Shown: piece after piece, positions 34,201-37,200 of the stretch | Layout of the letters: every line of letters starts with the position of its first letter | How positions within the stretch are numbered: position 1 is the stretch's first letter | Assembly (NCBI GenBank): GCA_964276515.1 | Contig: OZ193910.1 | Location: 2,108,001 to 2,172,000, forward strand | Direction of reading: 5' to 3' | DNA from: Gordius albopunctatus | Lineage: Eukaryota | Length of the DNA: 64,000 bases | The notes under the pieces: generated by a model | The model's database searches: none | Seen by the model: the letters and a program-made list of their open reading frames with translations, nothing else | What the model was told of the DNA's origin: nothing | Translations under genes and position numbers: made by a program

Positions 34201-37200
34201 TACCAAAATGGGGAAACGTATTTCTTGGCTATCCCATGATAATCGCGAATCTTATTTTATAATAGGACATAAAATGGGAATTTTACGTTTTGTAAATTTA
34301 AGTCAATATCAATTTCCCAACGTTTTCCAAATATATTTATAAATATGGGTGTAGCCAGGATTTGAAATAGAGGGGTGGGGGGAGGGGCAAAATGATTATT
34401 TTTTGAATTTTTAGCCATATTTATTTTTGCATCTTCCGCCCAAAGGGGGGATTATTTATTGGGCTCTAGTTTGGGGATTATTTATTTGTAACGTTATTCC
34501 TCCAATCTGTGATACTCCAAATACTAGTTTATTCACTCAAATAACTGGGATACGATTCCGAATACGGTGTTAGCGATTACGAGGGTGAAATGACACCAAG
34601 TCTAGTAAGGATTATTTTGGAGCGACATTTCTATGCGAGAAATTAATCAATTAGCTTTGGGAGAAAATTCTCATTCTCTCGGAGAAAATCTTATTTTCTG
34701 TTTAGTATCGATTTGTCTAGGACTTATATAGGTTTTTGATTTTCTTGGCCTGTATCTTTATCCTTGAAACTTCTTCTCTTTTTGACCCATTTTACCGCGC
34801 CGATTTCGTGATGAATGGCCCTTCACTTCCAAGGCTTTTCCACGGCCTTTGGAATCCTCAGCTGACAGTTAAAGTCATCATCCCCAAAAGGTTCATTGGG
34901 ATAAAAAACGATCCACTTGGGAAAGCCATATAAGCTGAATCTTCTTTCATAATGGCATTTTGTCTTAAAACTATATATATTTTCTCTGTTTCAAATACGA
35001 TTGCTTTGTTTAAAGCACCAATTATTTGCCTGCTATCCGATGTTTTTTCTAATGTTTCCAATGTCATTATGTTTATTTTGTCGGTAGGAGTACTGGCGTG
35101 ATGTGGTCCTCTTAAGCATATACCTGATAACAATCTTTTCTTTTCTTCGTTGTCATGTATATTTCTTATAGTTGAATAAATGGGAAATATTGCCAATAAG
35201 TCATGTGACGTCTTCTTCCTTTTCTCCAAATATATTAAATATGCTCCACCTAATCTAGAATAGAAGTTTACCATTTTTGACATGTAAATAGCTGCATTGG
35301 TTCGCAAAGCCTCTCTGAAAAATCTCTCTGCTATTTCTTCTGAAGTCTTAGCTATTATATGTGTGGTTTCAAACTCTTTCCTTATAAGTTGTGCCATGGG
35401 CAAATAGTTTGTGCTTACTTTCATGTTGAATCTTCTTATCACTTCATCAAACCAACTTGCATATCTACATTTACTCGTCTGATTGTATTCAATCTGCTTT
35501 GTTGTGTTGTCATTTGGATTATGAATCAGTTTTTTCTCTCCTATTCCGATCATCTCTCCTATATTTTTTAGAGCTTCTGCGTCAGGAGATCCTCTTGACA
35601 AATCAAAGGTGTTTTCTCTGTTACTCTTCCAAGCTTTGATTATATCATCTAAAATAGTTGATTTGGGCCTGTATTTTAATTTATAATTGTGGTAATAAGT
35701 TCCAATTATAGGGTGGCTAGATATACTTTCTATGAAGAAATTGACCATCTCTTTATCTGTTTCACAATCTACCTCCATATTTATGACCCATCCTTCAGGT
35801 ATTATCTTACCTCTCCACTTGACAATTTCATCCCTGAAATCTTCATTCAAATGGCTCAATTTTTCATATAAATATTTGGGGTTAACATTCTTTGTTCTGA
35901 CAGGAAATATTGAGAATGTCTCTCTTAACAATTCATTATCGATGTCCTTAGAGAAATCCTTTTCCCGTTCATCAACAATGTCATTGAACCATTGGGACAC
36001 GAACACATCGTTGTCATAGTGAATCTCTTCACTCTGATCTGTCTCATATATCTGATATAGCTCCATGTAAGTTTTTCTGTCAAGAATGAATTTCTTCACC
36101 TTTGTGTTTCCTCTCACATCTCCGATATGATCCACCCAATTTATGTCTCCTGTTTCAGGACTAATAAGAGTCAGAGCTGTGTGATCTCCCATACCATACA
36201 ATGAATCTTCATAGCCAGTCCTTCTTGAATTTGGTAGCCTCGTTACTTTTACTTCCACAAATTTGCAGAGCTTTGTGTCCACCAAATCCCACCGTTTTTT
36301 TGGTGGCCCTATACCCCATTCTTTCGCGAATTCAGCCTGCAAGTTCGGGATACTCGGCATGCCTTCTAACAATCTGAACCCGTACATTGTTTCCTCCATA
36401 GACACACATCAATTTCATCTTCAAGTAAGTTGGGGGGTTCTCCTTTACCTCTTCGATTATCTCTATTGTGTCTTCACTAGATCTTGTCTGGGTTCTGTTC
36501 CTGATTCAGAAGTTGTGTCTTTCCTCGCCCTTTTAGATTCTCTTTCGATGCTTGATTGCTCCCTTTCTTTTCTTTTCACTCCTTTTATTGGTTCAATTTC
36601 ACTAATCATGTCTTGATAAGGTTTCTCCTCCAAGTTGCAGATTAGTACACAGCACATTTGATGTCTGAGAAACATTTATTTTGATCGATTAGTGGAACTC
36701 TGCCAGTGTTTGTCGTTTAAGCCAAAGTTGTTTATGAAGTCTTCAGAATATAGTCCTGAGTTATATATAAGTTGGTGGAATTTGTCAGTCATATTTTTAA
36801 TTTTATCACAGCCTGTTTATAGTAAATATAGATTTTTGATTTTCTTGGCCTGTATCTTTATCCTTGAAACTTCTTCTCTTTTTGACCCATTTTACCGCGC
36901 CGATTTCGTGATGAATGGCCCTTCACTTCCAAGGCTTTTCCACGGCCTTTGGAATCCTCAGCTGACAGTTCTAGGTTTCCCTTACCTTTCTTATGCCAAT
37001 TCAATATTTATTCCCAGGTTGTGTCGTACCCTTGCTTCCTTCTGCTACTTCTTTCAGGCCAAGTCTTAATTAATAGTTGTGTCCTTGTACCATTCAACTA
37101 CCAACCCAATCTCCCTTCGTTTGTATTCTTATCACGTGCCCATGCCTTATAAGGACTGGTTCCCTTTTTGAGAGTTCCTCATGGATATGACATTTATAAA

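What the first reader, a model, noticed from the sequence alone, without database searches (positions are those of the whole stretch)
34858..36792. Endogenous orthomyxovirus-like (probably quaranjavirus-type) PA polymerase gene inside CaMKII intron 4
Seen: between CaMKII exons 37302-37356 and 33967-34032 lies about 1.9 kb of intronless coding sequence on the CaMKII strand. It carries LRHQMCC, FRLLEG, RWDLVD...[15 protein letters not shown] and GICLRGPHH...[10 protein letters not shown] in the order of influenza PA H41, E80, D108, E119 and the C-terminal-domain motifs. Known: orthomyxoviruses are segmented negative-strand RNA viruses with no DNA stage, so a chromosomal copy needs host or retroelement reverse transcription. 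Inferred: this is a fossil of a divergent, possibly undescribed virus that infected the host germline. The LRHxMxCxLxCNLE N-terminus and the long E/K-rich insert before the E80-like residue suggest a quaranjavirus-like lineage, from my recollection of those proteins.
Basis: partly seen in the sequence, partly recalled or inferred. Interest (0 to 1): 0.92.

Follow-up and report, generated by a model that had tools for sequence, protein, structure and literature searches.

The report
Flu-like virus fossil in horsehair worm
A broken piece of an influenza-family polymerase gene sits inside a repeated element in an intron of a kinase gene, in what is likely a horsehair worm genome; a retrotransposon likely copied it in, which would mean that insect-type flu relatives reached this parasite's own germ line.

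Summary
Window 36825-34871 (minus strand) is an orthomyxovirus PA sequence (Pfam Flu_PA above cut-off; best relatives about 35% identical) in CaMKII intron 4. It is a pseudogene: a stop at codon 39, frame breaks near codons 110-128, and about 110 C-terminal residues missing. It groups with insect viruses (OKIAV174/180/181, Photinus OMLV1/2, Hubei earwig virus 1; 100/100), not with genus Quaranjavirus (AU p 3e-47).

New here: (1) the insert lies inside a repeated 633-bp solo-LTR-like element (TG...CA ends, 5-bp target duplication, TATA box, poly(A) signal) and is bracketed by a 145-bp duplication of that element; (2) a neighbouring kinase gene points to Nematomorpha (84-95% to Gordionus, at most 68% to others); (3) two public runs hold the PA at the depth of unique host DNA, with both virus junctions, though no contig spans the whole locus.

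Best reading: capture by retrotransposon template switching in the worm germ line (0.6). It bears on a published assumption that a quaranja-like virus found in a horsehair worm belonged to its arthropod host.

The parts
34871..36825 (-). Virus-derived insert, 1955 bp: 33-nt leader plus PA codons 1 to about 640; broken and C-terminally truncated
   Evidence: one contig per place at host-like depth in runs X1 and X2
36793..36825 (-). 5' untranslated leader of the PA segment; at 36823 an 8-of-9 match to the published plus-strand terminus of Photinus OMLV2 (weak)
   Evidence: chance about 0.04 within the first five positions, 0.18 anywhere in the leader
36676..36678 (-). Premature stop at PA codon 39, shared by the window and both runs
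   Evidence: contigs X1 36510-36712 and X2 36064-36855 show no other letters
36409..36480 (-). Region of frame breaks in the low-complexity linker (stops at codons 110-128 of the ATG frame)
34861..36408 (-). Open stretch of 516 codons: endonuclease E, D and E-x-K motifs, linker and part of the C-terminal domain; its last three codons are repeat-derived
36826..37192 (-). 5' part (367 bp, U3-like) of a repeated solo-LTR-like element; begins TG; ends in a cut TATA box at the virus junction
   Evidence: (six X2 contigs with unlike flanks end at 37192)
36826..36970 (-). First copy of the 145-bp duplication
   Evidence: 144 of 145 identical to the second copy
34726..34870 (-). Second copy of the 145-bp duplication, running into the intact TATA box (TATATAA at 34730)
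34460..34725 (-). 3' part (266 bp, R-U5-like) of the element; AATAAA at 34533 and 34486; ends CA at 34460
37193..37197 (-). Left copy of the 5-bp target-site duplication (ATAAA)
34455..34459 (-). Right copy of the 5-bp target-site duplication (ATAAA)
37302..37356 (-). CaMKII coding exon 4 (55 bp, AG/GT)
33967..34032 (-). CaMKII coding exon 5 (66 bp, AG/GT)
10220..12907 (-). Myosin light chain kinase-like exons used to place the host (not part of the element)

Best explanation
A broken, truncated orthomyxovirus PA sequence lies inside a repeated, likely solo-LTR element in CaMKII intron 4 of a likely horsehair worm, and was likely captured when that retrotransposon's reverse transcriptase switched templates onto viral RNA in a germ-line cell. 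Shown: PA identity, damage, the 145-bp duplication, the element's ends and target duplication, host-like depth in two runs. Inferred steps: (1) the virus was making plus-strand RNA in a worm cell, because PA lies in the same sense as the LTR's TATA box and poly(A) signal; (2) reverse transcriptase copying the element's 3' end passed the TATA box, went 145 nt into U3, jumped into the PA RNA near codon 640, and copied to its 5' end; (3) it re-entered an element RNA at the TATA box, so copying those 145 nt twice; (4) the element integrated in the intron with a 5-bp duplication and was reduced to a solo LTR by LTR-LTR recombination; (5) the PA has since decayed and is likely spliced out with the intron, without a protein product.
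For: PA identity. Duplication brackets the insert exactly. The repeat has a fixed left end with six unlike flanks in X2 and depth 15-180 times the unique level in X1, while PA has one contig per place at 662 (X1) and 212 (X2) against 431-592 and 147-235 for unique host contigs. Of three CA ends between 34450 and 34500 only 34460 gives a target duplication, 5 of 5. The 5' end of the segment is nearly complete and the 3' end is cut, as expected if the enzyme entered internally and ran off the 5' end. Virus-LTR retrotransposon recombinants by copy choice are documented in mosquito cells (PMC6797480, passages). Only one copy of a large family carries PA, which fits capture in this genome. Host: 84, 84 and 95% to Gordionus over three exons against at most 66, 68 and 36% for seven other animals.
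Against: No internal gag-pol, primer-binding site or polypurine tract of this family could be seen, so 'LTR' rests on ends, target duplication and promoter signals only. Both 145-bp copies share two variants that most family contigs lack (34776/36876, 34802/36902), which fits a common RNA template but equally a duplication made in place. No contig spans the locus, and the virus-junction contigs reach 30 letters into the repeat, one short of the tool's 31-letter rule. Contig depth is not a copy number by the tool's own warning. The terminal-motif match is weak and was looked for after the fact; a second 8-of-9 match lies at 36801. Both runs are from one study and may include the assembled sample. 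Host placement rests on one gene.
Confidence: 0.6

Rival explanations
1. The solo LTR was already in the intron, and viral cDNA entered it later, either by recombination of a small circle made of 145 bp of LTR plus PA, or during repair of a staggered break. Either leaves a direct repeat around the insert.
For: The two 145-bp copies share two variants rare in the family. Circular virus-retrotransposon DNA is reported (PMC6797480). PA is at single-locus depth, with no sign of sister copies.
Against: No contig joining across the insert was listed, though contigs drop rare forms. The virus-junction contigs stop at 36855 in both runs, which suggests (inference from 31-letter words) that the one base by which the upstream copy differs also occurs in other family members, as if two templates were used. 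One junction falls exactly in the TATA box, near where an LTR RNA's repeated end lies.
Confidence: 0.22
2. The virus never infected the worm: the PA was captured in an insect host and came across inside a horizontally transferred retrotransposon, or host RNA taken up by the worm was the template.
For: All named members of the PA clade are arthropod viruses by their names. Horsehair worms develop inside arthropods, and Petrone et al. assumed an arthropod source for the quaranja-like virus in a worm library.
Against: The repeat family is abundant in this genome while PA is at single-locus depth; a PA-bearing founder would have left more PA copies. The PA is a long separate branch with no relative above about 35%, so no known insect virus is its source.
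Confidence: 0.08
3. The PA-repeat unit is real DNA but lies elsewhere in the genome (or in a co-sequenced organism) and was placed in the CaMKII intron by a mis-join through the repeat.
For: No listed contig spans from unique intron through the repeat into PA on either side; the window differs from both runs at one PA position.
Against: Repeat-to-intron junctions are bridged on both sides in X2 (37147-37544 and 34233-34533), both virus-to-repeat junctions are present, the order of pieces gives one element with a matching 5-bp duplication, PA depth equals host depth in both runs, and X2 shows two PA alleles at about equal depth (103 and 115), as for a diploid locus.
Confidence: 0.06
4. The insert is kept for a function, for example as a source of small RNAs against related viruses or as a truncated PA driven by the LTR promoter.
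For: It appears to be on both haplotypes in both runs; a 516-codon stretch with three of the four endonuclease motifs is still open; it sits directly behind an LTR promoter region.
Against: The stop at codon 39 is shared by all three sources and removes the metal-binding histidine motif from the open stretch; small indels differ between window, X1 and X2 in the 5' third, as in neutral decay; the sense orientation would not give RNAs antisense to viral mRNA.
Confidence: 0.04

Closest known systems
Orthomyxovirus EVEs of insects (Photinus pyralis, bioRxiv 10.1101/237586; Chilo suppressalis, PMC12810003)
   Same: Fragments of orthomyxo-like genes in host chromosomes, near transposable elements; the firefly viruses PpyrOMLV1/2 are in the same PA clade.
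   Different: Host is likely not an arthropod; the fragment is nested inside one LTR with base-resolved junctions rather than merely near a transposon; PA segment with its 5' leader.
Virus-LTR retrotransposon chimeras in Aedes (Tassetto et al. 2019, PMC6797480)
   Same: Copy-choice recombination between viral RNA and LTR retrotransposon RNA, giving viral DNA and EVEs flanked by LTR sequence.
   Different: There positive-strand viruses, mostly in piRNA clusters; here a negative-strand nuclear virus, in U3 of a solo LTR, in an intron of a conserved gene, with a 145-bp duplication.
Nematomorpha quaranjavirus 1 (Petrone et al. 2023, PMC10636315, supplement row)
   Same: A quaranja-like virus with five segments found in a horsehair worm RNA library.
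   Different: That is an RNA virus assigned by assumption to the arthropod host; this is chromosomal DNA.
Hymenopteran OKIAV174, Old quarry swamp virus, Raphidiopteran OKIAV180, Lestrade virus, Hubei earwig virus 1 (unclassified Orthomyxoviridae)
   Same: Nearest PA proteins, 31-35% identity over the whole insert; one clade at 100/100.
   Different: No sister group is resolved; the branch is long (0.93 changes per column), so the source virus is unsampled among the proteins searched.

Membership tests
Orthomyxoviridae PA | Flu_PA profile above the curated cut-off; best hits are PA | tested here: met
   44.2 bits against 23; 7 of 7 PDB matches are PA chains; 11 of 11 hits carry PF00603
Orthomyxoviridae PA | Endonuclease residues H, E, D, E-x-K in order | tested here: met
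   aligned with relatives and with influenza B PA for E, D, E-x-K; the H motif lies behind the early stop
Orthomyxoviridae PA | Complete reading frame with the PB1-binding C-terminus | tested here: not met
   stops and frame breaks; about 110 residues missing
Genus Quaranjavirus (ICTV) | PA groups with classified members | tested here: not met
   AU test rejects a clade with Tjuloc virus, red mite quaranjavirus and two unnamed neighbours, p 2.6e-47; only one classified species was in the tree
Genus Quaranjavirus (ICTV) | PB1 phylogeny and gp64-like glycoprotein | not testable with these tools
   no other segment in view; no whole genome held
Broad quaranja-like group ('Quaranjaviridae' of Petrone et al.) | Closer to quaranja-like viruses than to thogoto- or influenza viruses | tested here: inconclusive
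   clade includes soybean thrips quaranja-like virus 4 and the profile scores influenza and thogoto PA far lower (at most 63 bits, against 324-381 for named quaranja-like proteins and 469 for Tjuloc), but the trees had no influenza or thogoto outgroup
Non-retroviral endogenous viral element | Present as DNA at host depth | tested here: met
   runs that cover introns evenly hold PA at the same depth; run type is not on record
Non-retroviral endogenous viral element | Reads span host-virus junctions | tested here: inconclusive
   all four junctions are present piecewise; virus junctions by 30 letters only; nothing spans the repeat
Non-retroviral endogenous viral element | Decay and allelic variation; empty site in relatives | tested here: inconclusive
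   decay and alleles seen; empty site not testable
Solo LTR | TG...CA ends and 4-6 bp target-site duplication | tested here: met
   37192 and 34460, ATAAA on both sides; left end fixed by loose ends, right end bounded by contigs ending near 34464
Solo LTR | Repeated family; TATA box and poly(A) signal on one strand | tested here: met
   a diverged family contig keeps the TATA motif (table 7)
Solo LTR | Family linked to gag-pol with PBS and PPT | not testable with these tools
   no genome held; no Pfam match in six frames of the repeat
MITE, SINE or truncated LINE (considered) | Terminal inverted repeats, structured-RNA head, or ragged 5' end with a tail | tested here: not met
   no terminal inverted repeat among the 25 longest of 43 pairs shown; no Rfam match; fixed 5' end

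The most novel reading that the evidence does not exclude
Horsehair worms are true hosts of an insect-type orthomyxovirus lineage that reaches their germ line, and this locus is a base-resolved record of an LTR retrotransposon transducing a negative-strand virus transcript inside its U3: the first orthomyxovirus fossil outside arthropods that my searches could find, and a physical trace of a virus-plus-retrotransposon route for moving RNA between insect host and worm.
Probability: 0.5. Interest if true: 0.72.

Novelty: new variant of a known kind. Interest (0 to 1): 0.58.

Why it matters
Viruses found in parasite RNA libraries are hard to assign to parasite or host. [quoted passage not shown] A chromosomal copy nested in the worm's own repeat family is independent evidence that viral RNA of this family reached worm germ cells, and it makes the host question testable. 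It extends orthomyxovirus fossils, reported from arthropods, to another phylum, records an unsampled virus lineage, and preserves both capture junctions cleanly enough to tell template switching from later insertion once alleles are surveyed. It is not a working gene and nothing suggests a new cellular function.

Tried and rejected
No whole genome is held, so PB1, PB2, NP, glycoprotein, other PA copies and full-length family members could not be sought. Viral contigs: 0 of 40 pattern matches were relatives. Metagenome contigs: 1 of 16, a distant relative at 27%. No RNA holder listed, which says nothing about expression. No joints listed across the insert; contigs drop rare forms. I first read the repeat's frames as a LINE 3' end or another viral gene (recalled resemblance): no Pfam match in 6 of 6 frames, fixed 5' end, rejected. 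An element end at 34487 was rejected (no target duplication; repeated contigs run past it). An 11-nt cap-snatched leader starting at the mismatch at 36832 was considered and dropped, since contig ends suggest that base is repeat-derived. A six-frame Pfam scan of the whole window did not run; 8 of the 25 ORFs of 100 or more codons were scanned instead and gave only host families, so decayed viral or transposon pieces elsewhere in the window are not excluded. The bacterial promoter scan is irrelevant here. Earlier scan findings: none in three look-ups. No structure was predicted; sequence evidence sufficed.

Full report
What is there. Between CaMKII coding exons 4 (37356-37302) and 5 (34032-33967) lies a 3269-bp intron, 531 bp without the element described below. 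The four exons from 42855 to 33967 join in one frame into a CaMKII kinase sequence with AG/GT sites, and a likely first coding exon lies near 50345 (found by a recalled motif). On the same strand, 36792-34871 encodes orthomyxovirus PA: Pfam Flu_PA 44.2 bits, cut-off 23; 7 of 7 PDB matches are PA chains, best E 3.4e-5; 11 of 6225 candidates passed in the protein search and all carry PF00603, best OKIAV174 PA at 36% over 99% of the open stretch. The gene is broken: stops at codons 39 and 110-128 of the ATG frame, and the match to relatives stops about 110 residues short of their ends. The stop at codon 39 is also in both public runs.

Which virus. A profile search of 1.84 billion representatives gave 312 proteins at E up to 0.001, of which 150 were listed. 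Of 155 PA relatives held, 151 matched the window's protein; the best full-length identities are 35.4% (OKIAV174) and 34.8% (Old quarry swamp virus). A 15-row mixture-model tree, a 64-row FastTree of proteins of 640 residues or more and a 29-row IQ-TREE run (28 of 155 proteins, chosen for names and clade cover; LG+G4, midpoint root, no influenza or thogoto outgroup) all place it in one clade, 100/100, with OKIAV174, OKIAV180, OKIAV181, Photinus OMLV1 and 2, Hubei earwig virus 1, Blattella orthomyxovirus 1, Cotesiavirus, Diachasmavirus, soybean thrips quaranja-like virus 4, Lestrade and Old quarry swamp viruses. Its sister within the clade is unresolved (82/28). Holding it with Tjuloc virus (genus Quaranjavirus), red mite quaranjavirus and two unnamed neighbours costs 162 log units, AU p 2.6e-47. 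Hosts are read from the virus names; flea and tick sources for Lestrade and Old quarry swamp viruses are recalled. The firefly preprint calls this group a new lineage of the family (section 5.3, first of four parts read). So: quaranja-like in the broad sense, not genus Quaranjavirus.

The carrier. A 145-bp direct repeat, 144 of 145 identical, brackets the insert at 36970-36826 and 34870-34726. Laid contigs of two public runs show that it is part of a repeated element: bins over it have summed depth 9,668-119,966 in X1 and 1,950-9,188 in X2, against 662 and 212 over most of PA and 431-592 and 147-235 for unique host contigs (the tool warns that depth is no copy number). Six X2 contigs with unlike flanks leave the window at 37192, where the sequence begins TG. 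Repeated contigs end near 34464; of three CA ends between 34450 and 34500 only 34460 is followed by the same five bases that precede 37192. Without insert and duplicate the element is 633 bp, with TATATAA at position 363 and AATAAA at 560 and 607. No terminal inverted repeat, Rfam or Pfam match was found. This is the anatomy of a solo LTR in the sense of CaMKII and PA, with the virus inside U3; the link to a gag-pol element is untested.

Is it real. X2 bridges exon 4 to the element (37147-37544) and the element to the downstream intron (34233-34533). These junctions imply the duplication whatever the assembly did, if they belong to one element. X2 has two PA alleles at depths 103 and 115 differing at four sites, and X1, X2 and the window differ from each other by a few substitutions and small indels in the 5' third. 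Against: nothing spans the whole locus, both runs are from one study, their type is not on record, and one may be the assembled sample. I put integration at about 0.95 and this placement at about 0.93.

The host. A kinase exon at 12904-12563 gave 1798 hits, 120 listed; Gordionus is 84% identical and the next best 66%. Over three exons Gordionus scores 84, 84 and 95%, against 59-66, 55-68 and 24-36% for seven other animals, three of which gave no match to the third exon. Gordionus is Nematomorpha. The host is therefore likely a horsehair worm other than that species; this rests on one gene.

Mechanism. Established knowledge (recalled): LTR reverse transcription copies R and then U3 from the RNA's 3' end, two RNAs are co-packaged, and template switches are common. 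A switch 145 nt into U3 onto plus-strand PA RNA near codon 640, copying to its 5' end, and re-entry at the TATA box gives exactly the order seen: U3 to TATA, viral leader and PA, then the last 145 nt of U3 again. The insert begins two bases before an 8-of-9 match to the plus-strand terminus implied by the PpyrOMLV2 consensus; a distant relative's contig also starts its segment with the same four letters after a 9-nt leader. This is weak support (chance 0.04 to 0.18; a second such match at 36801). Copy-choice chimeras of virus and LTR element RNA are shown in mosquito cells (PMC6797480, passages). The chief rival is insertion into an LTR already in place, which the two variants shared by both 145-bp copies fit equally well. 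Plus-strand RNA exists only where the virus transcribes, which is why the orientation bears on true infection; uptake of host RNA cannot be excluded. Age is uncalibrated; one difference in 145 bp and a 516-codon stretch still open suggest a young insertion.

What is known. Orthomyxovirus EVEs: firefly (PMC6191289 passages; preprint passages, which suggests they may be restricted to arthropods), rice stem borer, 13 of 15 elements, mostly near non-LTR elements (PMC12810003, passages), and many arthropod groups (bioRxiv 2024.09.25.614983, one passage). A family-wide survey lists six host phyla without Nematomorpha (PMC12277240, parts 1-2 of 3). Orthomyxo-like viruses near thogotoviruses are reported from plant-parasitic nematodes (PMC12770441, passages). 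Petrone et al. found a five-segment quaranja-like virus in a Paragordius varius library and assumed an arthropod host (PMC10636315, passage, one section and supplement rows; preprint passage). I found no report of an endogenous virus in Nematomorpha in five searches, nor by term look-ups in three papers. The library lacks most subscription journals, bioRxiv supplements were not open, and tables of the Gordionus genome preprint are images, so a prior report may exist. PMC9967087 and listing-only searches added nothing further.

Verdict. A real, decayed orthomyxovirus PA fossil; a known kind of element in a new host phylum and with an unusually legible capture structure. Novelty: new variant of a known kind. 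Interest 0.58.

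Noticed in passing
window 36381-34870: CpG observed/expected is 0.47 in the PA stretch against 0.92 for the whole window; the insert keeps a virus-like, A-rich make-up (A 0.39).
   Followed up: no
window 35029-35092: Four allelic differences cluster within 64 bp of PA in both runs while the next 1.1 kb has one; could be an old allele or conversion from a second PA fragment.
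   Followed up: no
window 37012, 36680, 36589, 35077, 34533, 34486 (minus): Six AATAAA signals lie in the element and insert on the CaMKII sense strand; early polyadenylation of CaMKII is possible but untested.
   Followed up: no
window 37600-38335 and 34288-34471: Very abundant short repeats (summed depth up to 1.45 million in X1) with several copies in the window; family not identified.
   Followed up: no
window 16289-9333 (minus): Myosin light chain kinase-like gene downstream of CaMKII on the same strand.
   Followed up: partly
window 924-1718 (minus): bHLH transcription factor exon (Pfam HLH).
   Followed up: partly
window 57415-58772 (plus): Two overlapping ORFs in different frames, the second a weak 7tm_1 match: a GPCR with a frameshift or an assembly error.
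   Followed up: partly
window 27128-28003 (minus): 291-codon ORF inside the 3' part of the CaMKII region with no Pfam match; may be a large variable-linker exon.
   Followed up: no
window about 61000-61600 (minus) and about 2500-3000 (plus): Translations printed show stretches that resemble, from recall only, a hAT transposase C-terminus and a non-LTR retrotransposon endonuclease fragment.
   Followed up: no
window about 24600-25400 and 48500-48900: Two tandem repeat arrays that give long spurious ORFs.
   Followed up: no
P0282: A 136-residue PA-like protein annotated in a flea beetle (Psylliodes chrysocephala) chromosome-scale contig: probably another orthomyxovirus EVE.
   Followed up: no
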